This document shows, piece by piece, positions 40,076 to 62,370 of a stretch of 64,000 bases of DNA (the stretch's first letter is position 1; the number at the start of each line of letters is the position of its first letter). The stretch covers positions 8,697-72,696 of the forward strand of contig JAOLZA010000004.1 in NCBI GenBank assembly GCA_028343615.1, given 5' to 3'. Under the pieces are notes generated by a model. That model did not search any database. It saw only the letters and a program-made list of their open reading frames with translations, and was not told the origin of the DNA. Made by a program: the position numbers and the translations under genes. The DNA is from Verrucomicrobiota bacterium (GTDB lineage: Bacteria > Verrucomicrobiota > Verrucomicrobiia > Limisphaerales > UBA1100).

Positions 40076-40094
40076 AATCGGACTCTAACTCATT

Positions 40095-42155: not shown

Positions 42156-42191
42156 GGTCGCGGCGGTAATTAATTTTCAAGCGTTTCGAAT

Positions 42192-42908
42192 ATGGAAACA
42201 AATCTAAACGGCAACGGTACGTCTATCATTCGCATTGAGGGAATGAAAAAGATATATGATCTTGGCGAGGTAAAGGTACCCGCATTAGCAGGGGTGGATA
42301 TCAACATTAAGGAGGGCAGCTACGTTGCTATCATGGGCCCCTCTGGCTCCGGTAAATCCACGCTGCTAAATTTGCTCGGTTGCCTCGATCGGCCCACCTC
42401 CGGCCGGTATTTCCTGGGCGAACAGGATGTGTCCCTCATGAGCGATAGCGCTCTGTCCGAAGTGCGCGGTCAACGCATCGGATTTATCTTCCAGTCATAT
42501 AACCTCATTCCGCAGCTGGATGTGGTGGAAAACATTCATGTGCCACTTTTTTATCAGGGCAAACAACTCTCCGCTCATCGTGAGCATTGCGAGGATCTGG
42601 CGCGGCTGGTGGGTCTGGCTGACCGGCTCGATCACCGCCCGCTGCAACTTTCTGGTGGTCAACAGCAGCGCGTTGCCGTGGCACGGTCGTTGGTGAATGA
42701 TCCATTAATGATCCTCGCCGATGAACCCACTGGCAATCTCGATTCCAAAACCGGCCTGGAAATCCTCGCACTGCTAGACAAGCTGCATGCCGATGGCAAG
42801 ACCATCGTTGTGGTGACGCACGATGAGGAAGTGGCGGAACGCGCGGATCGGGTAATTCGGCTCAAGGACGGTCTAGTGGATCGCGACGAACCCAATCCAC
42901 GTAAATGA
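42192..42908 (+). CDS. ABC transporter ATP-binding protein, MacB-NBD/LolD type (the only NBD gene in the cluster)
   Basis: [45 protein letters not shown]. Confidence 0.9.
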
Positions 42909-42909
42909 T

Positions 42910-44691: not shown

Positions 44692-44789
44692 TGCCGGTGT
44701 TCCGATTCGCTCAGGAGCATCATTATTTTGTAACGCGGATGACATTCCTGCTGTAATAAGTGATAGCGAAGCATTGTGTGCAAATTTTA

Positions 44790-44818
44790 TTGAAAAGAAC
44801 TGGGGGTTTTTATACAAT
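44790..44818 (+). promoter_or_regulatory. Candidate sigma70-type internal promoter for the second efflux module
   Basis: TTGAAA-17 nt-TACAAT in the AT-rich 193-bp gap between permease 1 and adaptor 2, about 66 nt upstream of ATG 44885. Confidence 0.4.
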
Positions 44819-44884
44819 GTAAACAGTTTCCGTTGGGATGAAGACAGGGCATCGAGGCATACGTCCGAATTGCAAATTGAGCTA

Positions 44885-47026: not shown

Positions 47027-47028
47027 CC

Positions 47029-48330: not shown

Positions 48331-48436
48331 TCTATTATGGTAACAGAGGTGAAAAGATTGCCCCCAAAGAATCGTAAAATGTAATATTAAAGCTCCTCAT
48401 GCTGTAAGAATGGGAGCGAATTCACAGTTTTAAGTT

Positions 48437-49750: not shown

Positions 49751-49814
49751 ATCTGCCTTGATACATAAAATACCGATTAAAACCAACGGGCGTGCGTCCA
49801 ACTTGCCCCTAAAT

Positions 49815-51515
49815 ATGATGATGAATTATTCCTTTAAACTTCTTGGCATTCTTTTGTTGGTCGCGGTGTTGCTAGCCGGCTGCGAAGCGGCCAAGTTCCG
49901 TGACGCTGCTGATGACGAAGTGTATGGCATTTTGAAACAAAGAGGTAGCGACGTATTGGGTGCGGAGCAGGATTACGATATCCGTACCGTGTGGAGCGGT
50001 CGCGCGCCGGATGCTATTCCGCCGGTGGATATTATCAACGACCGCTTCCGCGATCAAACCAGTGTACTTACCCTTGAGTCCGCGCTAGGTATGGCCATTA
50101 CTAACAATCGCGCGTATCAGTTGCAAAAAGAGACCCTTTATCTTTCCGCATTGTCGCTCACCGGAACGCGGCATAAATTTGTGTGGCAGCCTACAAAGAG
50201 CACGGCGGACCTCGGCATTGGCCGTGACTCAAGCAAGGGCCTTAAGGGCGATTCCGATCTCGATTTGACCTTCAGTAAACTTTTCAAAACTGGTGGCACG
50301 CTTACTGCCACTTTGGCGAACGACTTGGTACTGTATTTCAATGGCAAACCGAAGGTTCCGGACATCACCCTCAAACTTACCCAACCGTTGTTGCGTGGAG
50401 CGGGGCGCGCCATCGCTGAGGAAGTGCTCACACAGGCGGAGCGCGATGTGGTTTATGCAGTTCGCGATTTCAGCCATTACCAAAAGACGTTTGCGATTGA
50501 AACGGTGTCCGAGTATTTCCGTATCCTTCAGAAAAAGGATTCAGTGAGGAACAGTTATAGCAATTATCAAAACCTGCAGGGCGCGCGCGCGCGCGCGGAG
50601 GCGATGGTGGATGCGCAGCGGTTGCCGAAGTACCAAGTGGATCAGGCGCGTCAAAAAGAACTTTCTTCCCGCGTAAAATATCTTGCTGCTGTGGAGAGCT
50701 ATCGCGCGGCATTGGATACCTTCAAGCAACGGCTCGCTTTGCCGCTGGGCGCGGATCTCAAGCTTGACGAAACCGCTCTCCGCGTACTTGTGCAGACGGG
50801 ACTAACCCCGTTGGAGTTAAACGCCCGCAATGGCTACCTCATTGCGGTGACAAACCGATTGGACCTTCTCAACCGAATCGACCAGTATGAGGATTCGCAG
50901 CGTAAAGTGCGGGTGTCGGCGGATAATCTACAACCGAGCCTAAACCTAGTAGTGGATGCTTCGTTGACAGAACAGTTCTACAGCTCCTTTTCGCCGGAAA
51001 ATTTTTCCGCAAACGTGGGCCTGCAGCTGGGTTTGCCGCTGGATAAATTGACGGAACGTAACGCCTATCGCACCAGCCTCATCAGCTTTGAAAAGCAACT
51101 CCGCGCCCTCGCCTCGGAACTTGACGAATTACGGGAAGACATACGCCAAGGTATCCGGCAACTTGCTCAAGAACATGAAAACTATTTTATCCAACAAAAC
51201 GCCCTCGCCCTCGCTCAACAGCGGGTAAATGTTATGCCGCTGTTGCTTGATGCGAATCAGGCAGACATCCGCGACCAACTCGAAGCTCAAGCCGACCTTG
51301 TAAGTGCACAGAATGCTGTGACCGGAGCAATGGTTAACTATCATGTGGCACGTTGGAATTTATTGAAGGACCTAGGCGTTATGCGCGTCGAAACTGGTCA
51401 GTTTTGGCTGGGAAATCAGCCTTTACTTGGAGTAGCCGCACCGGTTATCCCAAGTGCCTCGGGGCAGTTGCCTAACGTAGTTACGCCTGGGCAGGTGTTC
51501 GGAGAACAGAAATAG
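49815..51515 (+). CDS. TolC-family outer-membrane efflux lipoprotein (copy 2)
   Basis: The start is set at MMMNYSFKLLGILLLVAVLLAGC (lipobox). It is collinear with TolC copy 1 (for example TLTATLANDL, LTQPLL, GLQLGLPLDKLTERNAYR). Confidence 0.8.
   Translation: MMMNYSFKLLGILLLVAVLLAGCEAAKFRDAADDEVYGILKQRGSDVLGAEQDYDIRTVWSGRAPDAIPPVDIINDRFRDQTSVLTLESALGMAITNNRAYQLQKETLYLSALSLTGTRHKFVWQPTKSTADLGIGRDSSKGLKGDSDLDLTFSKLFKTGGTLTATLANDLVLYFNGKPKVPDITLKLTQPLLRGAGRAIAEEVLTQAERDVVYAVRDFSHYQKTFAIETVSEYFRILQKKDSVRNSYSNYQNLQGARARAEAMVDAQRLPKYQVDQARQKELSSRVKYLAAVESYRAALDTFKQRLALPLGADLKLDETALRVLVQTGLTPLELNARNGYLIAVTNRLDLLNRIDQYEDSQRKVRVSADNLQPSLNLVVDASLTEQFYSSFSPENFSANVGLQLGLPLDKLTERNAYRTSLISFEKQLRALASELDELREDIRQGIRQLAQEHENYFIQQNALALAQQRVNVMPLLLDANQADIRDQLEAQADLVSAQNAVTGAMVNYHVARWNLLKDLGVMRVETGQFWLGNQPLLGVAAPVIPSASGQLPNVVTPGQVFGEQK
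50581..50597. repeat. (GC)8 dinucleotide microsatellite inside the TolC-2 coding sequence
   Basis: gcgcgcgcgcgcgcgcg is read directly from the sequence and encodes GARARAEA in frame. Confidence 0.9.
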
Positions 51516-51519
51516 AAAA

Positions 51520-53229
51520 ATGGCCAAAGCCAAGGCATTCATTCAGAAGCATCCGGCGTGGACCACGGTGATCATCGTGATGCTCGCCAGCGTGTTCATG
51601 GGCGCTAAATGGCTGGAACCCACAAGCGGGTCCGCAGTCGTCATGCAGTTCGCAACTGCCCAACGGGGGGGCTTGCGCGTTACGGTAACCGAAGGGGGGT
51701 CACTCGATTCCACACGCAAGGTCAGCCTACGCTGTGAACTTGATGGTGGCGGGACCATCGTGGAGTTGGTGAATGAGGGAGCCTATGCGAAAGGTCCGCG
51801 TGAACACCAGGCTGAGGTAAGCGACACATTGCAAACTCTCACCGAAACCTATCGGTCTCTTGCTCAGCCTCCAAGCGGAAAAGAACCACCGACTCCGCTC
51901 CAAATAAAGGCACTGGAGGAATCCATTCGACGGATCAACCCCGAAGTGGATTGGGATAACTTGAACCTCGGCCAAACAATTCTTTTGCCGGGCGATCTAT
52001 TGGTGAAGTTTGAGGACGGTTTATTACGTGAGCGGATTTTTAGCCAAACCAAATCCGTGGAGGATGCCGAGCGGGACTTGGGAAATTCCGAAAAAGATTT
52101 GGCGCTGCGCAAGATTGAAACTGCTGAGGTGAATCGGCAGGCAGAACTTGATGTGGAATTCGCCGAACAGGATTTAGCAAAATACATTGAAGGTACCGCC
52201 CCGCTGGCCAAGTTGGCGTTAAAGGGCGATATTGATATTGCGGAGGAGGAAATCAAGCGCGCTGAAGACCGGCTGGTGAGCACGAAAAAACTCCGCACCA
52301 AAGGCTACGCCACCGACCTTGAGGTGCAAGCTGATGAGCTAACCATTCAAAAACAGAACAACCTCATCACCAAATATCGCAAACAAATGGACTTGCTAGA
52401 GCGGTTTGACATTCCACAAATGACTAAGCGATACCAGTCCAAGTTAGCCCAAGTGCGCGTGAGTGAGAAGCGCATGATCGAGAAGTCCCGGACCATCGTC
52501 GAAAGTCAAACCGAGACGGTCGACCGGCGCAAAGCCGGGCTTCAGGCCCAGCGCGATAAGTTGGAATTGTATCAGGTTCAACTCATTAAGACTGAAATGC
52601 GCGCTCCGCAGGATGGCCTCGTGATTTTCGCCCGCAGTTCCTCGCGCTACAGCGAATCCTATATCAAGCTTGGTGCGGATATTCGCAAGGGCTACAATGT
52701 TATCGATTTGCCGGACGTTAGCGAGCTGATGGCGGTGGTCCAGGTGCATGAATCGTATGTGCGTCACTTGCACAATGACCTCAAGGCGATTGTGAAGATT
52801 GATTCATTGCCGGAACAAGAATTTGACGGTGTCGTCCGATTGGTGGCCCCCACTCCCGATCAGCGCCGTCGGTACTATGAGAATATTTCAGTATACGACA
52901 CGCATGTTTGGATTGAGGATGAGCAAAATCAATTGCCCCCGGATCTCAAGCCGGGGGTTTCTGCGCGCGCAGAAATTGTCATTGCTGAGCTGACAGATGT
53001 ACTCAAGATCCCCGTACAATGTGTTACCACTCTTCGCGGACAAAAGGTGGTTCAGATCAAACGCGGTGATTCAGTGGAGACGGTGTCCGTAGAAACCGGG
53101 CAATTCAACGAACGTTTCATAGAAATTCGAGAAGGGCTCACGGCGGGGGATCAAGTTTCGCTGTCACCGAAAATCGAAGAGCCTTCCAACTTGACCAAAG
53201 GCAAAACGCAAGCCGCGGTCGGGCGCTGA
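51520..53229 (+). CDS. HlyD/MacA-type adaptor with a TM anchor and a longer, degenerate LysM-like insertion; no LTxxQ tail (adaptor 3)
   Basis: Anchor WTTVIIVMLASVFMG. IVELVNEGAYAKGP ... LPGDLLVKF flank the insertion AEVSDTLQTLTETYRSL...INPEVDWDNLNLGQTILLP. Beta-barrel motif MRAPQDGLVIF. Confidence 0.8.
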   Translation: MAKAKAFIQKHPAWTTVIIVMLASVFMGAKWLEPTSGSAVVMQFATAQRGGLRVTVTEGGSLDSTRKVSLRCELDGGGTIVELVNEGAYAKGPREHQAEVSDTLQTLTETYRSLAQPPSGKEPPTPLQIKALEESIRRINPEVDWDNLNLGQTILLPGDLLVKFEDGLLRERIFSQTKSVEDAERDLGNSEKDLALRKIETAEVNRQAELDVEFAEQDLAKYIEGTAPLAKLALKGDIDIAEEEIKRAEDRLVSTKKLRTKGYATDLEVQADELTIQKQNNLITKYRKQMDLLERFDIPQMTKRYQSKLAQVRVSEKRMIEKSRTIVESQTETVDRRKAGLQAQRDKLELYQVQLIKTEMRAPQDGLVIFARSSSRYSESYIKLGADIRKGYNVIDLPDVSELMAVVQVHESYVRHLHNDLKAIVKIDSLPEQEFDGVVRLVAPTPDQRRRYYENISVYDTHVWIEDEQNQLPPDLKPGVSARAEIVIAELTDVLKIPVQCVTTLRGQKVVQIKRGDSVETVSVETGQFNERFIEIREGLTAGDQVSLSPKIEEPSNLTKGKTQAAVGR

Positions 53230-53243
53230 TCCGACCGCATCCG

Positions 53244-54533
53244 TTGCGCATGAACCTTTCCCTCGTTCGAGTCATTCACCTGGGCATCAAGAGTCTGATG
53301 CTACACAAAATGCGTTCACTGCTTACGATGCTGGGTATTATCTTCGGCGTGTGTTCGGTGATTGCGATGCTTGCTATTGGTGAAGGTGCCAGCCATGAGG
53401 CGCAGGAAGCCATCCGTGCGCTCGGCAGTCGCAATGTTATCATACGTAGTGTACCGCCGCCCAAGGGGCAGTCTACCGCCGACACCGTGCAAACCTATAC
53501 TGCAAATTATGGCCTCAAACTTTCGGATGTGCAGTTGCTGGAAGAAACTCTGCACCCGCGTATCACAGCCACACTTGCCAAACGGCGCTATCGCATGAGT
53601 GTGCGAGTCGGGCGTGTGGAAGTATCTGGCACCGTGTGGGGAACACAACCCAATCACCTGCGGATGAGCCAAATGGAATTGCTTGCGGGGCGGTTCCTGT
53701 ATGTCACCGATGCGCATGCCAACGTGTGCGTGATCACTGATTCCATGGCCACCCGGCTTTTTCCTGTTTCCGATCCGCTTCACGGCGAAGTAAAGCTGAA
53801 TAACCGGCAGGTATTTCGCGTGGTGGGTGTGGTGCGTGAAACCGCCGCGGCCAGCGCACGCGCACCGGGGCAGGACAATATCGGCCGCGCGTTGGATGCC
53901 AATGTGTACATCCCTCTTGCCGCTGCGCATTCGCGCCTAGGCGTGCTGTTCACCGAACGTTCCACCGGTGGCTCCCAGCGCGAGCGGGTGGAACTGCATG
54001 AACTGGTTGTTGAATTGGCCGATGTGAATCACGTGGAGGCCACCGTGCCAGCTATCCGCGCCGCATTAAAAACAGCGCACAAAAAAATTGATTATGAAAT
54101 CATCGTCCCATTAGAGTTGCTGCGACAAGCGGAAGAAACTAAGCGCATATTCAACATCGTCCTCGGCTCCATCGCCGGCATTAGCCTCATCGTCGGTGGC
54201 ATTGGCATTATGAATATCATGCTCGCCACCGTCACCGAGCGTACGCGTGAGATCGGCATTCGTCGCGCGCTCGGTGCACAAAAGAGCCAGATCATCACGC
54301 AGTTCTTGGTGGAGACCGTCGTGCTCTCAATCGCCGGCGGTTTGGTGGGTGTAGTGCTTGGCGTAGCGTTGCCTATAGCAGTAGAACATTTTGCCGAAAT
54401 GAAAACCATCGTCACCCTTCCCGCCGTGCTGCTTGCCTTTGGTATCTCTGCCGTAGTGGGCGTGGTTTTCGGCGTGTACCCCGCCCGACGTGCCGCCAGC
54501 CTCGATCCCATTGAGGCCCTGAGGCACACCTAA
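53244..54533 (+). CDS. MacB/FtsX-type ABC permease (permease 4)
   Basis: [66 protein letters not shown]. The start is either TTG 53244 or ATG 53250. Confidence 0.85.
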   Translation: MRMNLSLVRVIHLGIKSLMLHKMRSLLTMLGIIFGVCSVIAMLAIGEGASHEAQEAIRALGSRNVIIRSVPPPKGQSTADTVQTYTANYGLKLSDVQLLEETLHPRITATLAKRRYRMSVRVGRVEVSGTVWGTQPNHLRMSQMELLAGRFLYVTDAHANVCVITDSMATRLFPVSDPLHGEVKLNNRQVFRVVGVVRETAAASARAPGQDNIGRALDANVYIPLAAAHSRLGVLFTERSTGGSQRERVELHELVVELADVNHVEATVPAIRAALKTAHKKIDYEIIVPLELLRQAEETKRIFNIVLGSIAGISLIVGGIGIMNIMLATVTERTREIGIRRALGAQKSQIITQFLVETVVLSIAGGLVGVVLGVALPIAVEHFAEMKTIVTLPAVLLAFGISAVVGVVFGVYPARRAASLDPIEALRHT

Positions 54534-54713
54534 AGCTTCAAAATTCGATGTTGGCACATTAGTTGCTTAAATTGCGTCATAAGGAAACAGACGTGAAAAC
54601 GACTGGTTTTCCGGAAAAAGTTTGAAGCTGGCGTGTGAATTTTCACGCAATTGAGTGAGTTTTGCGCACCGTCGGTTAATTCGGTAAAAAAATATCAAAA
54701 TAGGATCATTAAA

Positions 54714-55604
54714 ATGAAGAAATTAACTCAAAAGAACGGATTCACTCTCATTGAGCTACTAGTCGTGATCGCCATCATCGGTATTCTTGCCAGTATGCTA
54801 TTGCCCGTGCTGGCTAAGGCCAAGCAGAAGGCGAATGACGTGAAGGCAATGTCCAACCTGAAACAGGTGGCTCTGGCAATGCAGCAGTATGTGGGGGATA
54901 ACGACGAGACTTATCCCAAAGTATACGGTGGCAATGGCGCCGCTGGTCGGCCGATGTGGTTGAATTATAAATACCCCAAGGATAGCCAAATCCTGCAATA
55001 CCTTGGTAGTCAGGACGTTGGGGAACTGGAGAAGATGTTTGTGCACCCCAAGGATCGCTACTATAAAAGGCGCGGCTATAAGTATAGTTACTCAATGAAT
55101 GCACGACTGAGCGACCGGCCGTCGGTTTTCAACAGCGCGCAAAATATGGCCGTTCTACTAGAAGAAGCCTGTCAGCATGATCCGGCGGATCGCGTGAATG
55201 CTGTTGATGGTAATCAGAATCGCACCGGCGGTAAATATGCTTGGAGAGCTGATGCGATTGTCGCCAAGACGGGCAAATACCTCGCCGGTAAGACCGTCCG
55301 GGAGGTGGCGATCAACGATCCCTTCATGCTCGCCACGTGGAATGGAGGTCTCCAGCTGTGCGATCCCGATACAGTGACCTTTCGTCATATGGATGATTTC
55401 CATCAGTTGCGGGACGATTTAAAGGCTGGCAAGCTTGATAAGGCCCGCATCCTCGAAGTGTGTAATACACCCAGTGCGCATGTAATCTTTGCTGATTTCC
55501 ATGTTGGTCGAGCCTCCCGCACCGAGGCTAAAAACCCAGGTTATATGGAGCCCGAGCAGAACACTGCCGATCTGCCCAACATCGGCTACGAGAAGACTCG
55601 CTAA
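54714..55604 (+). CDS. Prepilin-type N-terminal methylation-domain protein (type II secretion pseudopilin-like, DUF1559-like)
   Basis: MKKLTQKNGFTLIELLVVIAIIGILASMLLP (cleavage/methylation motif) and C-terminal VIFADFHVG, resembling the DGHV motif of PVC pseudopilin-like proteins. The start is set at ATG 54714. Confidence 0.8.
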   Translation: MKKLTQKNGFTLIELLVVIAIIGILASMLLPVLAKAKQKANDVKAMSNLKQVALAMQQYVGDNDETYPKVYGGNGAAGRPMWLNYKYPKDSQILQYLGSQDVGELEKMFVHPKDRYYKRRGYKYSYSMNARLSDRPSVFNSAQNMAVLLEEACQHDPADRVNAVDGNQNRTGGKYAWRADAIVAKTGKYLAGKTVREVAINDPFMLATWNGGLQLCDPDTVTFRHMDDFHQLRDDLKAGKLDKARILEVCNTPSAHVIFADFHVGRASRTEAKNPGYMEPEQNTADLPNIGYEKTR

Positions 55605-55623: not shown

Positions 55624-55659
55624 GGCGGTCTCGCAAATGCGGGACCGCCTTTTTTATTT
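55624..55659 (+). terminator. Rho-independent terminator of the pseudopilin-like gene
   Basis: ggcggtctcgc / aaat / gcgggaccgcc forms an 11-bp stem (one G-U pair) with a 4-nt loop, followed by ttttttattt. Confidence 0.8.
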
Positions 55660-56099: not shown

Positions 56100-56224
56100 G
56101 CTCCGACCATTGTACTTGAACGCGTGTGGCTGACAAGAAAAAGTGCACGGGATTGGGACAGCATTCGATCGTGCATTGGCATTGACCCCCCCTGCTCCAT
56201 TGCCTAGCATCGGCGCTCCACGTT

Positions 56225-57070
56225 ATGAGATTTGGCATTAACTCCTTTTTATTCACTTCGCCGTTTACGACGAAATCCACCAGCCTATTTCCCAAGTTTG
56301 TGAAATGGGGCTTCGATACTATCGAAATCCCCATCGAAGCACCTGAGCACATCGACTCGGTGAAGGTTCGCAAAGCCCTCGACAAACACGGGCTCGCGTG
56401 CGGATCGGTGTGCGCGTGCATGGGCCCCGGGCGCGACTTTCGTGGCAGCGCCAAGGATCAGCGCGAGGCGATGAAATATTGCAAGGCGCTCATAGATCAT
56501 ATGGTAAACCTAGGCTGCCCGTCGCTCATTGGCCCCGTGTACAGCGTGGTCGGCAAGGCTGATGCCGTGGATCCGAAGGAGCAGAAACGCGAGTTTGCGT
56601 TGGTGGTTAAAAATCTTAAAGTGCTTTGCGCGTACGCCGAGAAAAAGGGCGTTCAGATTTGTGTAGAGCCGCTCAACCGGTTCGAGACTGACTTTCTCAA
56701 CACCTGCGAAAAAGGACTGCGTCTCATCAAGGCGGTCAACAGTCCAGTGCTCAAGCTGCACCTCGACACCTTCCACATGAACATCGAGGAAAAAAACCAA
56801 GCCGCCGCCATTCGTAAGGCCGGTAAATTGCTCGGCCATTTTCACGCCTGCGGCAGTGACCGTGGCACCCCAGGCAACGACCACATTGACTGGACCCCCA
56901 TCGTCAAGGCACTCAAAGGAATCCGCTACAAGGGCGATGTGGTGATCGAGAGTTTCACTACTGATGTGAAGGTCATCGCCCGTGCGGCAGCTATCTGGCG
57001 GCGCATGGAGCCTACTCGCGAGGAAATCGCCGTGAAGGGCCTCAAATTTCTAAAGAAAGCGTTCAAGTAA
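56225..57070 (+). CDS. Xylose-isomerase-like TIM-barrel protein (ketose 3-epimerase / sugar-phosphate isomerase family)
   Basis: LHLDTFHMNIEE and HFHACGSDRGTPG resemble the metal-binding motifs of D-tagatose/D-psicose 3-epimerase-type enzymes. No signal peptide. Confidence 0.75.
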   Translation: MRFGINSFLFTSPFTTKSTSLFPKFVKWGFDTIEIPIEAPEHIDSVKVRKALDKHGLACGSVCACMGPGRDFRGSAKDQREAMKYCKALIDHMVNLGCPSLIGPVYSVVGKADAVDPKEQKREFALVVKNLKVLCAYAEKKGVQICVEPLNRFETDFLNTCEKGLRLIKAVNSPVLKLHLDTFHMNIEEKNQAAAIRKAGKLLGHFHACGSDRGTPGNDHIDWTPIVKALKGIRYKGDVVIESFTTDVKVIARAAAIWRRMEPTREEIAVKGLKFLKKAFK

Positions 57071-57089
57071 ACCATCCAATTAAATAACT

Positions 57090-57797
57090 ATGAAAAAAAT
57101 TATCATTACCTTTTTGACCGCGACCCTTGCGCTAACAACCTTAGCGGACGAGAAGGGCCTTAAGTCTATTTTCGACGGGAAAACCCTCAAGGGCTGGAAC
57201 GGAGACCCAAAATTCTGGAGCGTGAAAGATGGTGCTATTACCGGCCAGACCACCAAGGGAAACCCCACCAAGGGCAATACCTTTATTATTTGGGAAGCGG
57301 GCAAACTAAAGAATTTCGTGCTCGAGTTGGACTTCAAGATCGTAGGCGGCAATAGTGGCATCCAGTACCGCAGTTTCAAGAAGCCGGGCAACAATGATGG
57401 TTGGCGCATCGGAGGCTATCAGGCCGATTTCGCTGCCGGCGCCGGTGGCGACCGCTACTCAGGCATCTGTTACGGCGAAGGGTTTCGCGGTATCTTGTCC
57501 CTTAGAGGTGACCAAACGACTCTCACTAAAGAGGGCGGCAAGCTTAAGAAGACGATCAAGAAAATCGGAGATGCTGCCGCACTCGGCAAACTGGTGAAGA
57601 AGGAGGACTGGAACACCTTCCGCATCGAGGCCAAGGATTTTCACCTTACCCACTACATTAATGGCGAGAAAATGACTGTGCTCATCGATAACGACGAGAA
57701 AGTTCGCCGTGCCGAGGGTCTTTTAGCACTGCAGTTGCACCAAGGCCCACCGATGACCGTGCAGTTTCGCAATATCCGCGTGAAGAACCTTAAATAA
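57090..57797 (+). CDS. Secreted DUF1080 (3-keto-disaccharide hydrolase family) protein
   Basis: Signal peptide, then SIFDGKTLKGWNGDPKFWSVKDGAITG, NSGIQYRS, and GLLALQLHQGPPMTVQFRNIRVK, the typical DUF1080 signature. Confidence 0.85.
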   Translation: MKKIIITFLTATLALTTLADEKGLKSIFDGKTLKGWNGDPKFWSVKDGAITGQTTKGNPTKGNTFIIWEAGKLKNFVLELDFKIVGGNSGIQYRSFKKPGNNDGWRIGGYQADFAAGAGGDRYSGICYGEGFRGILSLRGDQTTLTKEGGKLKKTIKKIGDAAALGKLVKKEDWNTFRIEAKDFHLTHYINGEKMTVLIDNDEKVRRAEGLLALQLHQGPPMTVQFRNIRVKNLK

Positions 57798-57839
57798 TTT
57801 TGTAAGGGCGACAAAAAAATAATTTAGAAAGACAACACG

Positions 57840-60800
57840 ATGAAAAAGATTCTGACACTCGGCTTAATCCTTGGGCTATCGATTGGCGTGATGGCCAAAC
57901 CCAAAAAAGTTGTAATGATTGCCGGTGGCCCAAGTCACGGTGTGTTATCACACGAACATAACGCGGGGATTCAGCTTCTCGCCAAGTGCCTCAAGCAAGG
58001 TGCGAGCGAATTGGTGACTCCGATCGTTGTGCTTAACGGTTGGCCCAAAGATGCCAGCGTTTTTGACGGTGCTGATGAGGTGGTGATTTATAGTGATGGA
58101 GGCGGCAGGCATCCTGCCTTGGGTGGTAAAAACCTCGAGGCCCTTGGCAAGTTAATGGACAAGGGCGTCGGTTTCCTCACCATTCACTATGCCGTGGAGC
58201 CCACCACCAACAAGGGGAATAAGGAATTCATCGCGTGGCAGGGCGGCTGTTTCGAAACACACTGGTCAGTGAACCCGCACTGGACTGCCAATTTCACGAA
58301 GTTTCCAAAGCATCCAATTACACAAGGAGTTAAGCCCTTCAAGGCGAATGATGAGTGGTATTTTCATATGCGCTTTGCGCCGGGGATGAAGGGCGTGACG
58401 CCGATTCTTTCCGACGTGGCCCCCAAGGAAACCATGAAGCGCGGTGACGGTGCTCACAGCGGCAACCCGGCTGTTCGAAAGAGCGTGGCGGCAGGTAACC
58501 CCCAGCATGTGGCCTGGGCGTTTGAGCGACCCAATGGCGGCCGAGGGTTTGGCTTCACCGGCGGACACAATCACCTCAATTGGGCCAACGACGATTTCCG
58601 CAAGACCGTTCTCAACGCCATCGTGTGGGTCGCCAAGGCGGAGGTGCCGAACGGTGGGGTGCCAAGCAAGTTGGTAGAAAAAGATTTATATGAAAACCTA
58701 GATAACAAGGGTCGTAAACCTAAGCCAAAGAGTAATCCCGGCCCCAAGCCTTCCGGCAAGGTGACCGGTCCCAAGGCAGCAGCGGAATCGAAGTTGATCA
58801 CCAAAAAAACTGGACCGGCTAAACTCGAGGCAAATATCAAGGGGGCGAAGGAGTTGCATTTGGTGGTGACTGATGGGGGGAATGGCTTTGCCTGTGATTG
58901 GGCCGATTGGGTCCACCCCACGCTCATCGATGAGGCGGGTATGCCGACAAAATTAACATCTTTAAAATGGAAGAGTGCCTCCAGCGGTTTTGGCTCCGTT
59001 CAATTGAATAAAAATTGCGACGGTAAGCCGTTGCGCGTTGGAGGTAAGTCTGTGGAATTCGGGCTCGGCACGCATGCCAATTCGATTGTCAGTTATACGC
59101 TTCCTAAAGGTCATAAGTTTGTGAAGTTTGTTTCCACCGTGGGTCTCGACAATGGCGGTACAGATCAAGGTGCCTGTGGCAATGTGTCCAGCGTGAAGTT
59201 TCATGTGTTCACTCAGCGGCCTAAGTTCGTCAAGGTGGCTTCAGGCGGAGGCCAATCGATTGGAAGGAAGCCGGAAGAGGCAATAGAGAACCTTGATGTA
59301 CATGAGGCATTGCAGGCGGAGGTGTTTGCTGCCGAGCCGATGATGCTCAGCCCATCAAATATCGACATCGATCATCGCGGACGTGTGTGGGTTTGCGAGG
59401 TGATCAACTATCGCCGACACAATGGTAAACGCCCGAAGGGCGACTGCATTCTTATTCTTGAGGACACCAATGGGGATGGCAAAGCGGACTCGAAAAAGGT
59501 TTTTTATCAGGGCCGCGATATTGATTCAGCCCATGGTGTGTGTGTGCTCAGTACGCCGGATGGTAAAAACACGCGTGTCATTGTCAGCGCGCTGGACAAA
59601 GTTCAAGTGTTTACTGACGTGGATGGCGATGACAAGGCCGACAAAAAAGAGACACTTTTTTCGGGCATTAGCGGTTCACAGCATGACCATGGCATTCACC
59701 AGTTCATGTTCGGTCCGGATGGTAGGTTATATTTCAATTTTGGTAACAGCGGGAAACAGCTAAAGGATAAGGGTGGTAAACCGATTGTGGATCGTGTCGG
59801 TAATGAGGTAAATGACCGCCGCCAACCTTACCAGCAGGGGATGGTCTTCCGTTGTTATCTTGATGGCAGTGAGTTGGAGACGTTGGGCTGGAATTTTCGA
59901 AATAACTGGATGGTTGCTGTCGATAGCTTTGGCACGATTTGGCAGAGCGACAACGATGATGATGGCAACCGAGGTGTGCGAATTAATTTTGTGATGGAGT
60001 ATGGTAACTACGGTTACCGGGATGAGCTTACTGGTGCCGGCTGGCGTTCCAAACGCACCAATATGGAAAAAACTGTGCCCGAACGCCATTGGCATCTTAA
60101 TGATCCAGGGGTGATACCCAACCTGCTTCTGACCGGTGCTGGCTCACCTACGGGCATATGTGTCTATGAAGGCGATCTTCTCCCTAAGGTTTTTCAGGGC
60201 CAAATGATTCACTGTGATGCCGGTCCCAGCATCGTTCGTTCCTATCCTGTAAAGCAAAGTGGTGCGGGCTACACTGCTGAAATCGTAAACATCCTTGATG
60301 GCGCGAAACGTGATAAGTGGTTCCGCCCATCCGATGTCAAGGTTGCGCCTGATGGATCTTTAATCGTTGCTGACTGGTACGATCCTGGAGTGGGTGGTCA
60401 CAATATGCAGGATTTGGATCGTGGTCGTTTGTTCCGTATTACTCCTAAAGGACATAAGGGTTATAAACTTCCTAAGATCGATTTCAAAACCACTGAAGGC
60501 CTGATTGCCGCTCTGCAAAATCCGAATAACTCAGTCAGGAACGTTGCGTGGATGGAATTGCACAAACAGCAGAATGAGTCGAAACCGGCTCTATTAAAAT
60601 TAGCAGCAGATAAGAATCCTCGAATGCGAGCTCGCTCTCTCTGGTTGCTTTCCCAGATTAAGGGAAATCAGCAGTCGACGGTGTTGCTTGCTGCCAAGGA
60701 CAAGGATGAAAATATCCGTGGGATGGCTTTACGTATTGCCCGTCAGCACAAGCTGGATGTTATTCCGCTTATTCGTGAAATGTCCGGTGACGGGAGTGCG

Positions 60801-61172
60801 TTGGTTCGCCGCGAATGCCTCATCGCATTGCGGCACCATCCGAGTGACGAGGCTCCACATCTTTGGGCTAAGCTTGCCAGTGCGCACGATGGTAAGGACC
60901 GGTGGTATCTTGAAGCCCTTGGCCTTGCCGCTGATAAGCAGGAGAACAAGTTCTTCGACAATTGGGTGGCAGGTGCCAAGCTCAATACTGCTGCTGCTCG
61001 CGACATCATCTGGCGTAACCGTGGAACTCATGGAGCAAAGCATATTGCCGATATCGTTCTTGATAAGAAAACCACCAAAGAAGAAAAACCGCGCTACCTG
61101 CGAGCGCTGGACTTCATTCCCAAGAGCAAAGAGAAGGATGATGCGCTCGCCCGCATTGCGCTGGGTTTGTAG
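57840..61172 (+). CDS. Secreted multidomain protein: ThuA-like + NPCBM-like + 'membrane-bound dehydrogenase' beta-propeller domain + HEAT repeats
   Basis: Signal peptide. ThuA-like KKVVMIAGGPSHG...VIYSDGGGRHP. NPCBM-like LHLVVTDGGNGFACDWADWVHP...GLGTHANS. Propeller FAAEPMMLSPSNIDIDHRGRVWVCEV...LEDTNGDGKADS. HEAT-like NPNNSVRNVAWMEL, DKNPRMRARSLWLL, DENIRGMALRIA. Confidence 0.75.
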   Translation: MKKILTLGLILGLSIGVMAKPKKVVMIAGGPSHGVLSHEHNAGIQLLAKCLKQGASELVTPIVVLNGWPKDASVFDGADEVVIYSDGGGRHPALGGKNLEALGKLMDKGVGFLTIHYAVEPTTNKGNKEFIAWQGGCFETHWSVNPHWTANFTKFPKHPITQGVKPFKANDEWYFHMRFAPGMKGVTPILSDVAPKETMKRGDGAHSGNPAVRKSVAAGNPQHVAWAFERPNGGRGFGFTGGHNHLNWANDDFRKTVLNAIVWVAKAEVPNGGVPSKLVEKDLYENLDNKGRKPKPKSNPGPKPSGKVTGPKAAAESKLITKKTGPAKLEANIKGAKELHLVVTDGGNGFACDWADWVHPTLIDEAGMPTKLTSLKWKSASSGFGSVQLNKNCDGKPLRVGGKSVEFGLGTHANSIVSYTLPKGHKFVKFVSTVGLDNGGTDQGACGNVSSVKFHVFTQRPKFVKVASGGGQSIGRKPEEAIENLDVHEALQAEVFAAEPMMLSPSNIDIDHRGRVWVCEVINYRRHNGKRPKGDCILILEDTNGDGKADSKKVFYQGRDIDSAHGVCVLSTPDGKNTRVIVSALDKVQVFTDVDGDDKADKKETLFSGISGSQHDHGIHQFMFGPDGRLYFNFGNSGKQLKDKGGKPIVDRVGNEVNDRRQPYQQGMVFRCYLDGSELETLGWNFRNNWMVAVDSFGTIWQSDNDDDGNRGVRINFVMEYGNYGYRDELTGAGWRSKRTNMEKTVPERHWHLNDPGVIPNLLLTGAGSPTGICVYEGDLLPKVFQGQMIHCDAGPSIVRSYPVKQSGAGYTAEIVNILDGAKRDKWFRPSDVKVAPDGSLIVADWYDPGVGGHNMQDLDRGRLFRITPKGHKGYKLPKIDFKTTEGLIAALQNPNNSVRNVAWMELHKQQNESKPALLKLAADKNPRMRARSLWLLSQIKGNQQSTVLLAAKDKDENIRGMALRIARQHKLDVIPLIREMSGDGSALVRRECLIALRHHPSDEAPHLWAKLASAHDGKDRWYLEALGLAADKQENKFFDNWVAGAKLNTAAARDIIWRNRGTHGAKHIADIVLDKKTTKEEKPRYLRALDFIPKSKEKDDALARIALGL

Positions 61173-61263
61173 CGCATTTTCAGACACGCATTTCACGGAT
61201 AACTACGGATTGGGGTTCTAATCTGTGTCTTTCATTTTTAACACGCCCCGTTAGAATGTCCGC

Positions 61264-62370
61264 GTGAAACTGTTCATCGCCATTTTGTTTTTGGCCGGTA
61301 ATCTATCCGCTGCAAATCCTTTGCCGCCGGAGCAGGTGAATACGTTGATTGGGGCGTTGGGCCGGTTGGATCCGGCTTTGGTTAATTCCAATCCCGCGCT
61401 CAAGGAGCGATTGGGGCAAGTCCTCGATGCGGTGCGGGGTGAGGCGCGCTCGGTGGCGTTGATTAAAAAATTTCAAGTGGAAGGCCGCGAGTTGGATTTG
61501 CTGGCGGTGGCAGTGAAGCATCCCAATGACCCCGCCGGTGTGGAGGCAATGGGAATGGTGTTGGCGGGTGATGGGAAAAAAGTGGTAATTGACTTGCTCA
61601 TCGGCAAAGATGCCCAACAAGCCACAGCCGTGGCCAAGGCGTTGGGGAACAGCAACAACCCCAGCGTCATCCCGATGCTCGCGCCGTTGGTGGTCGACGC
61701 CACGCTGCACGCCAATGTGCGCAAGGAGGCGGTGAAGGGTTTGGCGAATTATGAGGCGGGGGCGAAGCATTTGTTGAGCTTGGCGAAGGATGGGAAGTTG
61801 CCGCAGAACGTGAAGTTCACCGCGAGTCTTGCGTTGAGCACGGTGCGTTGGCCGCCGATTAAGGCTGAGGCGGCGAAGGTGTTGCCATCGCCTTTCGGTG
61901 CGAATGCGAAACCGTTACCGCCGGTCGCGGACTTGGCGAAACACAAAGGCGATATCGCCAAGGGCGCAAAAATTTATATGCGCGAAGCGGTGCAATGCGC
62001 GCGTTGTCACAAAGTGGGCGATGCAGGTATCGAAGTGGGGCCGGCGCTGACGGAGATTGGCGATAAGTTGCCGAAAGAGGAATTGTACGCGGCAATCCTC
62101 GATCCGAGCGCGGGAATTTCTTTTGGCTACGAGGCGTGGTTGGTGACTATGAAAGATGGTAATGCTGCCTTCGGCATTATCGAAAGCGAAACGGACGATG
62201 AAATTTCTGTGAAAGGTCCCACAGGCGCGGTGACAAAACACGCGAAGGCGAACATCAAAAGCCGCGCGCAACAGCCAGTTTCATTGATGCCACCGGGATT
62301 GCACCTGACGATGAAGGAGGCGGAGTTGGTGGATTTGGTTGAGTATCTTTCTTCGTTAAAGAAGAAGTAG
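61264..62370 (+). CDS. Secreted HEAT-repeat protein with a C-terminal mono-heme cytochrome c domain (Pirellula/Verrucomicrobium-type heme-binding domain)
   Basis: GTG start and signal peptide MKLFIAILFLAGNLSAA. Heme motif CARCHKVGDAG, with distal MPPG providing a candidate Met ligand. Confidence 0.8.
   Translation: MKLFIAILFLAGNLSAANPLPPEQVNTLIGALGRLDPALVNSNPALKERLGQVLDAVRGEARSVALIKKFQVEGRELDLLAVAVKHPNDPAGVEAMGMVLAGDGKKVVIDLLIGKDAQQATAVAKALGNSNNPSVIPMLAPLVVDATLHANVRKEAVKGLANYEAGAKHLLSLAKDGKLPQNVKFTASLALSTVRWPPIKAEAAKVLPSPFGANAKPLPPVADLAKHKGDIAKGAKIYMREAVQCARCHKVGDAGIEVGPALTEIGDKLPKEELYAAILDPSAGISFGYEAWLVTMKDGNAAFGIIESETDDEISVKGPTGAVTKHAKANIKSRAQQPVSLMPPGLHLTMKEAELVDLVEYLSSLKKK

What the first reader, a model, noticed from the sequence alone, without database searches (positions are those of the whole stretch)
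56225..62370. Predicted oxidative (3-keto) glycoside-processing module wired to a periplasmic c-type cytochrome
Four consecutive plus-strand genes make up the module. They are a xylose-isomerase-like TIM barrel and a secreted DUF1080 protein (the family named 3-keto-disaccharide hydrolase). Next comes a secreted ThuA-like + NPCBM + beta-propeller 'dehydrogenase' + HEAT protein, followed by a secreted HEAT + CxxCH cytochrome. ThuA/ThuB and DUF1080 are linked to 3-keto-sugar pathways. TIM-barrel 'sugar-phosphate isomerase' proteins act as lyases or isomerases in recently described 3-keto-glycoside cleavage routes. Together they suggest that a bound glycan (via NPCBM) is oxidised in the periplasm, with electrons passed to cytochrome c. 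The large PVC-specific dehydrogenase/heme proteins are still experimentally uncharacterised.
Basis: inference. Interest (0 to 1): 0.55.

Follow-up and report, generated by a model that had tools for sequence, protein, structure and literature searches.

The report
Cytochrome-linked sugar-oxidising gene module
Four neighbouring genes in a marine Verrucomicrobium are tied together across hundreds of genomes by gene fusion and conserved order, and most likely form an uncharacterised periplasmic machine that oxidises a bound sugar or glycoside and feeds the electrons to a c-type cytochrome.

Summary
In detail: four plus-strand genes sit at the stated coordinates with the stated domains. The proposed test, co-occurrence, came out strongly positive.

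- g3 and g4 are a split form of one protein. A g4-like HEAT plus cytochrome c part directly follows g3 relatives in 64 of 69 species (35 fused).
- The DUF1080 gene sits directly upstream in about 32 of 69 (24 fused).
- Starting from g1 orthologues, 43 of 61 metagenome loci have this DUF1080 next, and 25 of 40 have ThuA.
- The conserved core is therefore TIM barrel, DUF1080 and ThuA. The propeller and cytochrome are one common extension.
- The modelled propeller matches PQQ-dependent soluble sugar dehydrogenases best and keeps their catalytic His and Arg-Asn.

- g1 is cytoplasmic and ketose-3-epimerase-like, not a secreted 3-keto-glycoside lyase type.
- g2 belongs to a different DUF1080 subfamily from BT2157.
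- One relative of the propeller family was reported to cleave lactose.

The substrate, the cofactor and the 3-keto chemistry remain inferred. I rate this a new variant of a known kind and moderately interesting.

The parts
56225..57070 (+). g1: cytoplasmic xylose-isomerase-like TIM barrel of the ketose-3-epimerase type (281 aa), with no signal peptide. Its four metal/catalytic positions are E148, D181, H207 and E242.
   Evidence: PF01261, E 1e-39. NF051856 D-psicose 3-epimerase scores 181 bits, below its cutoff of 300. PDB matches: D-tagatose/D-psicose 3-epimerases at 135-185 bits and YcjR at 64-109 bits. E148, D181, H207 and E242 are invariant in alignment A4. Orthologues are followed by DUF1080 in 43 of 61 metagenome loci.
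57090..57797 (+). g2: secreted DUF1080 (PF06439) jelly-roll protein (235 aa). It belongs to the subfamily that is fused or adjacent to g3-type proteins.
   Evidence: PF06439, E 4e-38. It is directly upstream of g3 relatives in about 32 of 69 species, fused in 24. The best PDB match is 4jqt domain 1 (132 bits with the profile); BT2157 (8tda) scores only 44 bits. N88, Q111, D113, Y128, E130, Q215 and H217 are invariant.
57840..57896 (+). g3 signal peptide (MKKILTLGLILGLSIGVMA).
   Evidence: Read from the sequence. No predictor was available.
57897..58715 (+). g3 ThuA-like domain (residues 20-292), with an invariant His/Asp/Glu-rich set: H33, H38, D86, H91, H116, E120, E139, H158, D171, E172, H243 and H245.
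   Evidence: PF06283, 58.6 bits against a cutoff of 33.4. The model has pLDDT 90, and its top fold matches are the ThuA-like proteins 4jqs, 4pxy and 1t0b. Stand-alone secreted paralogues occupy this position in relatives.
58737..59249 (+). g3 NPCBM/NEW2 (CBM51-like) carbohydrate-binding domain (residues about 300-470).
   Evidence: PF08305, E 3e-28. PDB matches 2vmh/2vmg and 7js4.
59268..60452 (+). g3 six-bladed propeller (DUF7133/TIGR02604, residues 477-871) with the fold of the soluble glucose dehydrogenase (sGDH). It carries H617 (nt 59688-59690), R687-N688 (nt 59898-59903) and the invariant acidic loop W701-N710 (nt 59940-59969).
   Evidence: TIGR02604, 295 bits. The model has pLDDT 75 and pTM 0.81. 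Foldseek top hits are sGDH, 3a9g, AA12, Asd and Adh. The profile alignment to sGDH places H144, R228-N229 and Q246-P248 on these residues.
60453..61172 (+). g3 C-terminal HEAT-repeat region (residues 872-1110). It is the first half of a helical repeat array that continues into g4.
   Evidence: PF13646 and PF02985. In fused relatives this region, the g4 N-terminal region and the cytochrome domain are contiguous in one ORF.
61264..61947 (+). g4 signal peptide plus HEAT-repeat region (residues 1-228).
   Evidence: PF13646. It is homologous to the internal HEAT segment of fused relatives. Signal-like N-terminus: MKLFIAILFLAGNLSA, with the GTG start codon read as Met.
61948..62370 (+). g4 c-type cytochrome domain (TIGR02603). 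The heme-binding motif is C245-A-R-C-H249 (nt 61996-62010). The probable Met ligand lies in L341-M-P-P (nt 62284-62295).
   Evidence: TIGR02603, 128 bits against a cutoff of 68; PF00034 and PF13442. PDB match 7zs0, an anammox diheme cytochrome c (63 bits).
56100..56224 (.). Probable promoter region of the unit. It is the divergent intergenic space, if the upstream minus-strand Sel1 lipoprotein starts at its internal Met.
   Evidence: A weak sigma-70-like site lies at 56182-56210 (9 of 12 positions, not above the shuffle expectation). A strong terminator at 55624-55649 closes the upstream gene. There is no strong terminator inside the unit.

Best explanation
The four genes form one functional unit for oxidation-driven processing of a sugar or glycoside in the periplasm.

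- g3 is secreted. Its NPCBM domain binds the carbohydrate (inferred).
- Its sGDH-fold propeller oxidises a sugar hydroxyl, using the conserved His617 base and an Arg-Asn plus acidic-loop cofactor/metal site. The cofactor is most likely PQQ with Ca2+ (inferred).
- Electrons pass to the c-type heme of g4. g4 docks on g3 because the two proteins are halves of one HEAT-repeat array. This is shown by fusion in relatives; the docking itself is inferred.
- From g4 the electrons go on to the respiratory chain (inferred).
- The DUF1080 protein, together with the ThuA domain, works on the oxidised (keto) glycoside, by elimination or hydration as in known 3-keto-glycoside routes (inferred by family association).
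- The released keto-sugar is imported and then epimerised or isomerised by the cytoplasmic ketose-3-epimerase-like TIM barrel g1 (inferred).
- In evolutionary terms the core is TIM + DUF1080 + ThuA. The propeller-HEAT-cytochrome part is a dehydrogenase module joined to that core through the ThuA domain.
For: Linkage (shown):
- Among the top 120 homologues of g3, many carry DUF1080 fused at the N-terminus, some carry cytochrome c at the C-terminus, and P0097 and P0116 carry both.
- In 80 species-level genomes, a g4-like HEAT+cytochrome part directly follows in 64 of 69 evaluable loci (35 fused). DUF1080 directly precedes in about 32 of 69 (24 fused).
- The 169 kb lying within 2.5 kb upstream of the ThuA domain hold 32 DUF1080 and 10 TIM hits. 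The other 811 kb of flanks hold none.
- Anchored on g1 orthologues, DUF1080 lies within 1 kb in 43 of 61 loci and ThuA within 2.5 kb in 25 of 40. Annotated examples are L165-L167.

Dehydrogenase reading:
- The propeller model's best PDB matches are all PQQ-dependent sugar dehydrogenases: sGDH, 3a9g, AA12, Asd and Adh (E 1e-13 to 1e-9).
- The profile alignment puts sGDH H144, R228-N229 and the Q246-G247-P248 loop on invariant H617, R687-N688 and the WQSDNDDDGN loop.
- A constant HEAT+cytochrome c tail makes sense for an electron-yielding enzyme.

Keto-sugar theme:
- DUF1080 BT2157/AL2 acts on 3-keto-glycosides (PMC8121099; 10.1101/2024.03.25.586180).
- The cytochrome-c-dependent lactose 3-dehydrogenase LacABC is encoded next to DUF1080 genes (PMC9007349).
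- ThuAB is described as forming 3-keto-disaccharides (PMC8121099).
- g1's family abstracts a proton next to a carbonyl, as in ketose 3-epimerases and the 3-keto-glucoside 4-epimerase YcjR.

Operon:
- Gaps are 19, 42 and 91 nt, and there is no strong internal terminator.
Against: - No substrate, cofactor or product is known. Nothing here is biochemical.
- sGDH-type enzymes normally oxidise C1 of free aldoses, not C3 of glycosides.
- The propeller scores far below the curated cutoff of the PQQ family (TIGR03606: 17.7 against 434).
- Its Ca/PQQ loop carries an acidic insertion, and sGDH Q231 aligns with Trp.
- The C-terminal PQQ ligands could not be checked.
- The most conserved loop is modelled with low confidence.
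- g2 lacks the BT2157 Glu164 equivalent.
- g1 is cytoplasmic, and no transporter is encoded nearby.
- Many TIM-DUF1080-ThuA loci have no propeller or cytochrome and no conserved dehydrogenase neighbour.
- A relative of the propeller family, purified from E. coli (which makes no PQQ), was reported to release glucose from lactose (PMC5342196).
Confidence: 0.45

Rival explanations
1. g3+g4 is a C1-oxidising quinohemoprotein. Like sGDH, Asd or fungal AA12 pyranose dehydrogenase, the propeller oxidises the reducing end of a free aldose or oligosaccharide to a lactone and passes the electrons to cytochrome c. No 3-keto intermediate is involved. DUF1080 and NPCBM act only as glycan-binding or glycan-cutting modules, and g1 serves an unrelated cytoplasmic sugar interconversion.
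For: All the closest structural relatives are aldose or pyranose dehydrogenases, and the catalytic His and Arg-Asn are kept. One DUF1080 protein has been described as an endo-xanthanase/lichenase (PMC9007349). g2 differs from BT2157 at a proposed active-site Glu.
Against: This reading does not explain why ThuA and a keto-sugar-type TIM barrel are so tightly linked to DUF1080, nor why three families associated with 3-keto-sugar pathways travel together.
Confidence: 0.2
2. The propeller is a cofactor-independent glycoside hydrolase or lyase, as claimed for the beta-galactosidase Lac161_ORF7. The cytochrome domain has a regulatory, structural or unrelated role.
For: Purified Lac161_ORF7 (TIGR02604+HEAT+cytochrome c), made in E. 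coli, released glucose from lactose with a Km of 1.8 mM (PMC5342196). NPCBM domains accompany glycosidases. A taxonomic paper already counts TIGR02604 as a putative glycoside hydrolase family (PMC7397252).
Against: This rests on one report that used a coupled glucose-oxidase assay. [quoted passage not shown] The fold and the retained His/Arg-Asn point to sGDH-type chemistry. A heme domain conserved in 64 of 69 species, and fused in half of them, is hard to explain for a hydrolase.
Confidence: 0.12
3. The module acts on a non-carbohydrate or cell-envelope substrate, for example a periplasmic redox or repair function. The carbohydrate-family names are misleading.
For: g3 is unusually conserved: 57-60% identity over 1100 aa between phyla, which is more typical of a housekeeping function than of a glycan-specific enzyme. 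There is no transporter, regulator or CAZyme among the conserved neighbours. One relative sits next to heme-biosynthesis-like genes.
Against: Five of the six domain families (TIM PF01261, DUF1080, ThuA, NPCBM and the sGDH fold) have carbohydrate-related characterised members.
Confidence: 0.13
4. Only g3 and g4 belong together. g1 and g2 are chance neighbours.
For: Thirty-eight of 69 g3 loci have no DUF1080 upstream and 59 have no TIM barrel. The relative L004 has only g3+g4.
Against: There are fusions of DUF1080 to g3 in 24 species. Neither family has any hit in 811 kb of control flanks, against 32 and 10 hits in the 169 kb directly upstream. The reciprocal linkage from g1 also holds.
Confidence: 0.03

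Closest known systems
BT2156-BT2160 / AL1-AL5 3-keto-glycoside pathway of Bacteroides and Alistipes (PMC8121099; 10.1101/2024.03.25.586180)
   Same: A PF01261 TIM barrel and a secreted DUF1080 protein are encoded together with a periplasmic dehydrogenase. The logic is oxidise first, then eliminate and hydrate.
   Different: The dehydrogenase there is a Gfo/Idh/MocA NAD enzyme working in a redox-neutral cycle. Here it is an sGDH-fold propeller wired to cytochrome c. The TIM barrel there is secreted and acts as a lyase. Here it is cytoplasmic and ketose-3-epimerase-like. g2 is a different DUF1080 subfamily (Glu164 replaced by Gly). ThuA and NPCBM are absent there.
LacABC / glucoside 3-dehydrogenase plus DUF1080 (Caulobacter, Pedobacter; PMC9007349)
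   Same: A periplasmic glycoside dehydrogenase that depends on cytochrome c is encoded next to DUF1080. Electrons go to the respiratory chain.
   Different: According to the papers read, LacABC is unrelated to ThuAB, and no sequence resemblance to it was seen here. From my own knowledge it is an FAD (GMC-type) enzyme with separate small and cytochrome subunits. It has no propeller, HEAT repeats, ThuA or NPCBM.
ThuAB of rhizobia and Agrobacterium (3-keto-disaccharide formation; cited in PMC8121099)
   Same: A ThuA-family protein is paired with a sugar dehydrogenase.
   Different: The partner there is the Gfo-type ThuB in a cytoplasmic operon with an ABC transporter. Here ThuA is secreted and fused to a propeller, and no ThuB-like neighbour was found.
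Soluble PQQ-dependent sugar dehydrogenases (sGDH, Asd, Adh, Pyrobaculum enzyme) and the fungal AA12 pyranose dehydrogenase quinohemoprotein
   Same: Six-bladed propeller fold, with the catalytic His and Arg-Asn conserved. From my own knowledge, the fungal enzyme likewise combines a propeller, a cytochrome domain and a carbohydrate-binding module.
   Different: Sequence similarity is marginal (E 0.005). The Ca/PQQ loop has an acidic insertion. The cytochrome here is c-type and is attached through HEAT repeats. PQQ binding has not been shown.
PVC-type heme-binding CxxCH proteins (TIGR02604 + TIGR02603), including Lac161_ORF7 (PMC5342196)
   Same: g3 and g4 together carry both signature domains above their cutoffs. 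The HEAT linker is the same.
   Different: The protein is split into two secreted polypeptides here. This orthologue group additionally carries ThuA and NPCBM, and often DUF1080. Lac161_ORF7 lacks those domains and was described as a beta-galactosidase.
Ketose 3-epimerases (D-tagatose / D-psicose 3-epimerase) and YcjR 3-keto-D-glucoside 4-epimerase
   Same: g1 aligns over its full length with all four metal/catalytic residues present.
   Different: g1 scores below the equivalog cutoff (181 against 300 bits). Its orthologues form a tight group of their own, linked to DUF1080 and ThuA. The substrate is unknown.

Membership tests
PVC-type heme-binding CxxCH protein (TIGR02604 + TIGR02603) | N-terminal 'membrane-bound dehydrogenase' propeller domain, TIGR02604, above the curated cutoff | tested here: met
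   g3 residues 491-871 score 294.8 bits against a cutoff of 122.2.
PVC-type heme-binding CxxCH protein (TIGR02604 + TIGR02603) | C-terminal heme-binding domain, TIGR02603, with a CxxCH motif | tested here: met
   g4 residues 229-364 score 128.1 bits against a cutoff of 68.15. The motif CARCH lies at residues 245-249.
PVC-type heme-binding CxxCH protein (TIGR02604 + TIGR02603) | Both domains in one polypeptide | tested here: not met
   The protein is split between g3 and g4, with a 91-nt gap and a separate signal peptide on g4. The same split is present in L005, L001, L167 and 29 of 64 relatives; 35 of 64 are fused.
DUF1080 / 3-keto-disaccharide hydrolase (PF06439) | Pfam model above the gathering score | tested here: met
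   131.9 bits against a cutoff of 26.8, covering the full length of the model.
BT2157/AL2-type 3-keto-alpha-glucoside lyase/hydratase | Conserved channel residues reported for BT2157 (Glu103, Asn134, Glu164, Gln166, Tyr190, Lys245, Gln273, His275) | tested here: inconclusive
   The motif-level correspondence, inferred from the DUF1080 alignments, is as follows. Q-x-H is kept (Q215, H217), the NSG Asn is kept (N88) and the Gln is kept (Q111). The Glu164 position is an invariant Gly (G109). The remaining residues could not be aligned, because BT2157 (8tda) matches only the N-terminal half, at 44 bits.
ThuA (PF06283) | Pfam model above the gathering score, and a ThuA-like fold | tested here: met
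   58.6 bits against a cutoff of 33.4. The model has pLDDT 90, and its top Foldseek hits are the ThuA-like proteins 4jqs, 4pxy and 1t0b.
ThuAB trehalose 3-dehydrogenase system | An adjacent Gfo/Idh/MocA partner (ThuB) | tested here: not met
   There is none in the window next to the unit. No conserved Gfo-type neighbour appears in the 80 genome loci or the 80 metagenome loci.
Soluble PQQ-dependent sugar dehydrogenase (PF07995 / TIGR03606) | Family model above the curated cutoff | tested here: not met
   TIGR03606 scores 17.7 bits against a cutoff of 434.55. PF07995 appears only as a precomputed hit (weak where graded) on some homologues.
Soluble PQQ-dependent sugar dehydrogenase (PF07995 / TIGR03606) | Six-bladed propeller fold of sGDH | tested here: met
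   Foldseek ranks 1-18 are sGDH, 3a9g, AA12, 2ism, 3das, 7cdy and 2g8s, with E from 6e-14 to 6e-10 and TM up to 0.73.
Soluble PQQ-dependent sugar dehydrogenase (PF07995 / TIGR03606) | Catalytic base His144 and the PQQ-binding Arg228-Asn229 | tested here: met
   They align to H617 and R687-N688, which are invariant in 26 sequences.
Soluble PQQ-dependent sugar dehydrogenase (PF07995 / TIGR03606) | Active-site Ca/PQQ loop Gln246-Gly247-Pro248, and Gln231 | tested here: inconclusive
   The loop is homologous but changed to the invariant sequence SDNDDDGN, with a two-residue insertion. Gln231 aligns with W690. The loop is modelled at pLDDT below 50.
Soluble PQQ-dependent sugar dehydrogenase (PF07995 / TIGR03606) | C-terminal PQQ ligands (Lys377, Arg406 and Arg408 in sGDH numbering, recalled from memory) and actual PQQ binding | not testable with these tools
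   Full-length sGDH relatives could not be fetched: one search returned only fragments.
Ketose 3-epimerase (NF051856 D-psicose 3-epimerase) | Equivalog model above the cutoff | tested here: not met
   180.9 bits against a cutoff of 300.
Ketose 3-epimerase (NF051856 D-psicose 3-epimerase) | The four metal/catalytic residues Glu, Asp, His and Glu, in the motifs E-x-LNRFE, DTFH, H-x-H and (I/M)E-x-F | tested here: met
   E148, D181, H207 and E242 are invariant in A4 and aligned with D-tagatose 3-epimerase 8xix. The catalytic role of these residues comes from my own knowledge of the family.
AL1/BT1-type 3-keto-beta-glucoside 1,2-lyase | A secreted TIM barrel (signal peptide) with a His/Asp/His metal site and a catalytic Glu | tested here: not met
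   Neither g1 nor any orthologue has a signal peptide; the barrel starts at residue 1. Its metal set is of the Glu/Asp/His/Glu epimerase type. No PDB chain named as a lyase appears among 45 profile hits.
NPCBM/NEW2 (CBM51-like) | Pfam model above the gathering score | tested here: met
   98.8 bits against a cutoff of 23.9. PDB matches 2vmh/2vmg.

The most novel reading that the evidence does not exclude
The ThuA domain is a general partner that couples different sugar dehydrogenases to DUF1080-type keto-glycoside lyases. The dehydrogenase is Gfo-type ThuB in rhizobia and an sGDH-fold quinohemoprotein in the PVC group. If so, the large family of PVC-type heme-binding proteins (20 TIGR02604 paralogues in one planctomycete genome; PMC7397252) is a radiation of periplasmic glycoside dehydrogenases linked to the respiratory chain. 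That would make it an oxidative alternative to glycoside hydrolases in Planctomycetes and Verrucomicrobia, which would also gain energy from cleaving the glycosidic bond.
Probability: 0.22. Interest if true: 0.8.

Novelty: new variant of a known kind. Interest (0 to 1): 0.58.

Why it matters
Planctomycetes and Verrucomicrobia are generally regarded as important degraders of complex glycans in the sea and in soil. Their genomes carry many 'PVC-type heme-binding' proteins, DUF1080 proteins and ThuA proteins of unknown role.

The analysis shows that one highly conserved orthologue group physically fuses DUF1080, ThuA, a carbohydrate-binding module, an sGDH-fold propeller and a c-type cytochrome. 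It also shows that a keto-sugar-type TIM barrel travels with the DUF1080-ThuA pair.

This turns a vague annotation into a concrete, testable proposal: glycosides are cleaved oxidatively in the periplasm, with the electrons captured by the respiratory chain. If it is true, the recently described 3-keto-glycoside routes extend to new enzyme types and phyla. Carbohydrate budgets inferred from glycoside hydrolase counts would then miss part of the picture.

Tried and rejected
1. PQQ ligands. I tried to test the C-terminal PQQ ligands by fetching full-length sGDH relatives, using the sGDH fragment printed as the query.
2. ThuA by sequence. The ThuA profile against PDB sequences gave no hit. The fold search gave only uncharacterised ThuA-like proteins and glutamine-amidotransferase folds, so it gave no clue to mechanism.
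3. A conserved partner. I looked for a conserved ThuB/Gfo partner, transporter or regulator by clustering all unassigned neighbours in 160 loci. None was found. The only recurrent neighbour is a prepilin-type protein, a type I believe is abundant in these phyla, so I did not count it as part of the module.
4. Literature. Searches for a ThuA mechanism and for any description of this module found only PMC5342196 and PMC7397252 for TIGR02604.
5. Promoter and terminator scan. Counts were not above the shuffle expectation. I used it only to note that there is no strong internal terminator.
6. Frameshift artefact. I considered whether the g3/g4 split is a frameshift artefact and rejected it. The split, with a separate signal peptide, recurs in L005, L001, L167 and 29 other species.
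7. g1 as an AL1/BT1-type lyase. I considered this and rejected it on the lack of a signal peptide and the epimerase-type residues.

Full report
**1. Observation**

The window holds four consecutive plus-strand ORFs at exactly the reported coordinates.
- g1: 56225-57070, 281 aa.
- g2: 57090-57797, 235 aa.
- g3: 57840-61172, 1110 aa.
- g4: 61264-62370, 368 aa, GTG start.
- The gaps between them are 19, 42 and 91 nt.

- g1 is a PF01261 TIM barrel.
- g2 is PF06439 (DUF1080).
- g3 combines ThuA, NPCBM and DUF7133/TIGR02604 (295 bits, cutoff 122) with HEAT repeats.
- g4 combines HEAT repeats with TIGR02603 (128 bits, cutoff 68). Its heme motif CARCH is at residues 245-249.

g2, g3 and g4 begin with signal-peptide-like sequences and g1 does not.

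A strong terminator closes the upstream prepilin-type gene, and the downstream HIT gene is convergent. No strong terminator lies inside the unit. A 97% identical locus comes from an uncultured marine Verrucomicrobiae MAG (L005), so the window is from that kind of organism.

**2. Are the four genes linked?**

*Fusions.* Among the 120 best homologues of g3, many are 1320-1400 aa proteins with DUF1080 fused in front. Some carry a cytochrome c domain at the end. P0097 (1671 aa) and P0116 (1706 aa, Maioricimonas) carry DUF1080, ThuA, NPCBM, propeller, HEAT and cytochrome c in one chain.

*Genome loci.* A scan of one genome per species found at least 595 carriers. I analysed the best 80 with 10 kb flanks.
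- A g4-like HEAT+cytochrome part directly follows in 64 of 69 evaluable loci. It lies in the same ORF in 35 and is separate in 29. One further locus has it directly upstream instead.
- The g2-type DUF1080 directly precedes in about 32 of 69. It is fused in 24, all of them Planctomycetota-labelled.
- The 2.5 kb upstream of the ThuA domain (169 kb in total) contain 32 DUF1080 and 10 TIM-barrel hits. The remaining 811 kb of flanks contain none of either.
- No other neighbour is conserved.

g3 and g4 are thus a naturally split form of the canonical 'PVC-type heme-binding CxxCH protein'. The split falls inside the HEAT array, which suggests that the two proteins reassemble.

**3. The reciprocal test changes the picture**

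I started from an alignment of g1 orthologues (A4). They are 70% identical between the window and the Chthoniobacteraceae L039 orthologue, although g3 is only 50% identical to its L039 relative. A metagenome scan gave 80 loci at 61-99% identity to g1.
- The g2-type DUF1080 lies within 1 kb downstream in 43 of 61 evaluable loci.
- A ThuA gene lies within 2.5 kb in 25 of 40.
- Neither is present in 8 of 40.
- A propeller lies within 6 kb in only 4 of 21.

The annotated contigs L165 and L166 show TIM, then DUF1080, then a stand-alone ThuA of 304 aa, followed by unrelated genes. L167 repeats the window's four-gene order. Two stand-alone ThuA paralogues that I translated (L001, L104) start with signal-peptide-like sequences.

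The conserved core is therefore TIM + DUF1080 + ThuA. DUF1080 + ThuA is also the part shared with the giant planctomycete fusions. The window's lineage joins the core to a propeller-HEAT-cytochrome module through the ThuA domain.

**4. What the parts are**

*Propeller.*
- The AlphaFold model has pLDDT 75 and pTM 0.81.
- Its best PDB matches are all PQQ-dependent soluble sugar dehydrogenases: sGDH, the Pyrobaculum enzyme 3a9g, fungal AA12, Asd and Adh. Non-redox propellers follow only after these.
- A family profile also reaches sGDH by sequence (E 0.005). The alignment places the catalytic His144 on H617 and the PQQ-binding Arg228-Asn229 on R687-N688. It places the Ca/PQQ loop Gln246-Gly247-Pro248 on the invariant WQSDNDDDGN loop, which carries a two-residue acidic insertion. 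Gln231 aligns with Trp.
- That loop region is the least confident part of the model. This would fit a cofactor- or metal-dependent conformation, which is my inference.
- The C-terminal PQQ ligands could not be tested.

*ThuA domain.* It models very well (pLDDT 90). It matches only uncharacterised ThuA-like structures and glutamine-amidotransferase folds. It has a striking set of invariant His, Asp and Glu residues but no known mechanism.

*g2.* It belongs to a coherent DUF1080 subfamily. Its best structural relative is domain 1 of 4jqt, while BT2157 matches only weakly. At motif level the Q-x-H, NSG and Gln positions are kept, but the Glu164 position is an invariant Gly (residues from 10.1101/2024.03.25.586180).

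*g1.* It aligns over its full length with ketose 3-epimerases (up to 185 bits) and more weakly with the 3-keto-D-glucoside 4-epimerase YcjR. It keeps the Glu/Asp/His/Glu set and scores below the D-psicose 3-epimerase equivalog cutoff. It is not of the secreted AL1/BT1 lyase type.

*g4.* The heme domain resembles the C-terminal domain of an anammox diheme cytochrome c (PMC11791136).

**5. Mechanism**

*Shown:* the evolutionary linkage of all four genes, the split-protein nature of g3 and g4, the sGDH-like fold with a retained catalytic His and Arg-Asn, and the CxxCH motif.

*Inferred:*
- The propeller oxidises a carbohydrate held by the NPCBM domain, and the electrons leave through g4.
- DUF1080 and ThuA act on the resulting keto-glycoside.
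- g1 converts an imported keto-sugar.

*Basis of the keto-sugar reading.* It rests on family associations from independent experimental systems.
- DUF1080 BT2157/AL2 acts on 3-keto-glycosides (PMC8121099; 10.1101/2024.03.25.586180).
- DUF1080 genes sit next to the cytochrome-c-dependent lactose 3-dehydrogenase LacABC (PMC9007349).
- ThuAB forms 3-keto-disaccharides (as cited in PMC8121099).
- PF01261 barrels abstract protons next to carbonyls.

I give this reading 0.45.

*Main rivals:*
- A C1-oxidising aldose dehydrogenase with no 3-keto chemistry (0.20).
- A cofactor-free glycosidase, as reported for Lac161_ORF7 (0.12; PMC5342196).
- A non-carbohydrate role (0.13).

[quoted passage not shown] From my own knowledge, S. 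meliloti makes PQQ and matures c-type cytochromes aerobically, whereas E. coli K-12 does not. That would fit a quinohemoprotein. However, the activity of the protein purified from E. coli argues the other way.

**6. Comparison and novelty**

The module works like known oxidative glycoside routes (BT2156-2160, LacABC+DUF1080, ThuAB) and like quinohemoprotein sugar dehydrogenases. It is not a member of any of those systems.
- The dehydrogenase is of a different type.
- The TIM barrel is of a different clade and in a different compartment.
- The DUF1080 is of a different subfamily.
- ThuA is fused rather than paired with ThuB.

By score it is a member of the TIGR02604/TIGR02603 family, but it is split. 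I found no paper describing this linkage. I rate it a new variant of a known kind, with interest 0.58. The linkage is solid and makes a large uncharacterised protein family testable, but the chemistry is still inference.

Noticed in passing
window 24000-30700: A low-GC stretch (40-43%, against 52-56% elsewhere). It encodes a sulfotransferase (24568-25794), a TauE protein and a TylF-like O-methyltransferase. It also encodes an unusual 729-aa fusion of a pyruvate-kinase barrel, a PUA domain and ATP sulfurylase (26340-28529). Polysaccharide-synthesis genes flank the stretch. It looks like a sulfated-glycan biosynthesis island, possibly acquired horizontally.
   Followed up: partly
window 38318-54533: Tandem copies of tripartite efflux-type genes (TolC-like outer-membrane protein, HlyD/MacA-like adaptor, MacB/FtsX-like permeases and an ATPase) lie directly upstream of the module. 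The assignments for the window are read from the translations. The relative L167 shows the same families (OEP, MFP, MacB) by Pfam and the same arrangement.
   Followed up: no
window 54651-55604 (+): A prepilin-type N-terminal methylation protein sits just upstream of the module. The same kind of protein is the only recurrent extra neighbour upstream of g1 orthologues, in 8 metagenome loci. I believe such genes are abundant in these phyla, so this may be chance.
   Followed up: partly
L001 9046-9906; also L006, L008, L086, L099, L100, L104, L106, L119, L123: Relatives carry one or more extra stand-alone ThuA genes between DUF1080 and the g3 homologue. The two that I translated (L001, L104) start with signal peptides. 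The window and L005 lack this gene. Some soil versions have a propeller protein with no detectable NPCBM domain.
   Followed up: partly
L004 7817-9783: In a 62% relative, the g3+g4 pair stands alone. It is preceded by a chlorite-dismutase-family gene and a radical-SAM gene with a weak HemN_C hit, which I read as possible heme-biosynthesis genes.
   Followed up: no
window 61204-61227: A 10-bp hairpin followed by a T-rich tract lies in the 91-nt gap between g3 and g4. It might modulate read-through into the cytochrome gene. The overall scan was not above the shuffle expectation.
   Followed up: no
window 3906-7664 (-) and 10596-12356 (-): Two large ORFs (1252 aa and 586 aa) have no Pfam match at E 1e-4.
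   Followed up: no
PDB entries 4jqs and 4jqt: The best solved-structure match of the ThuA domain (4jqs, Bacteroides uniformis) and that of the DUF1080 protein (4jqt) have consecutive PDB entry codes. I did not check whether their genes are neighbours in a Bacteroides genome.
   Followed up: no
L166 1-2228: A different paralogue of the PVC-type heme-binding family (DUF6807 + DUF7133 + cytochrome c) lies 5 kb upstream of a TIM-DUF1080-ThuA triad. This illustrates how the propeller-cytochrome module is combined with various N-terminal domains.
   Followed up: no
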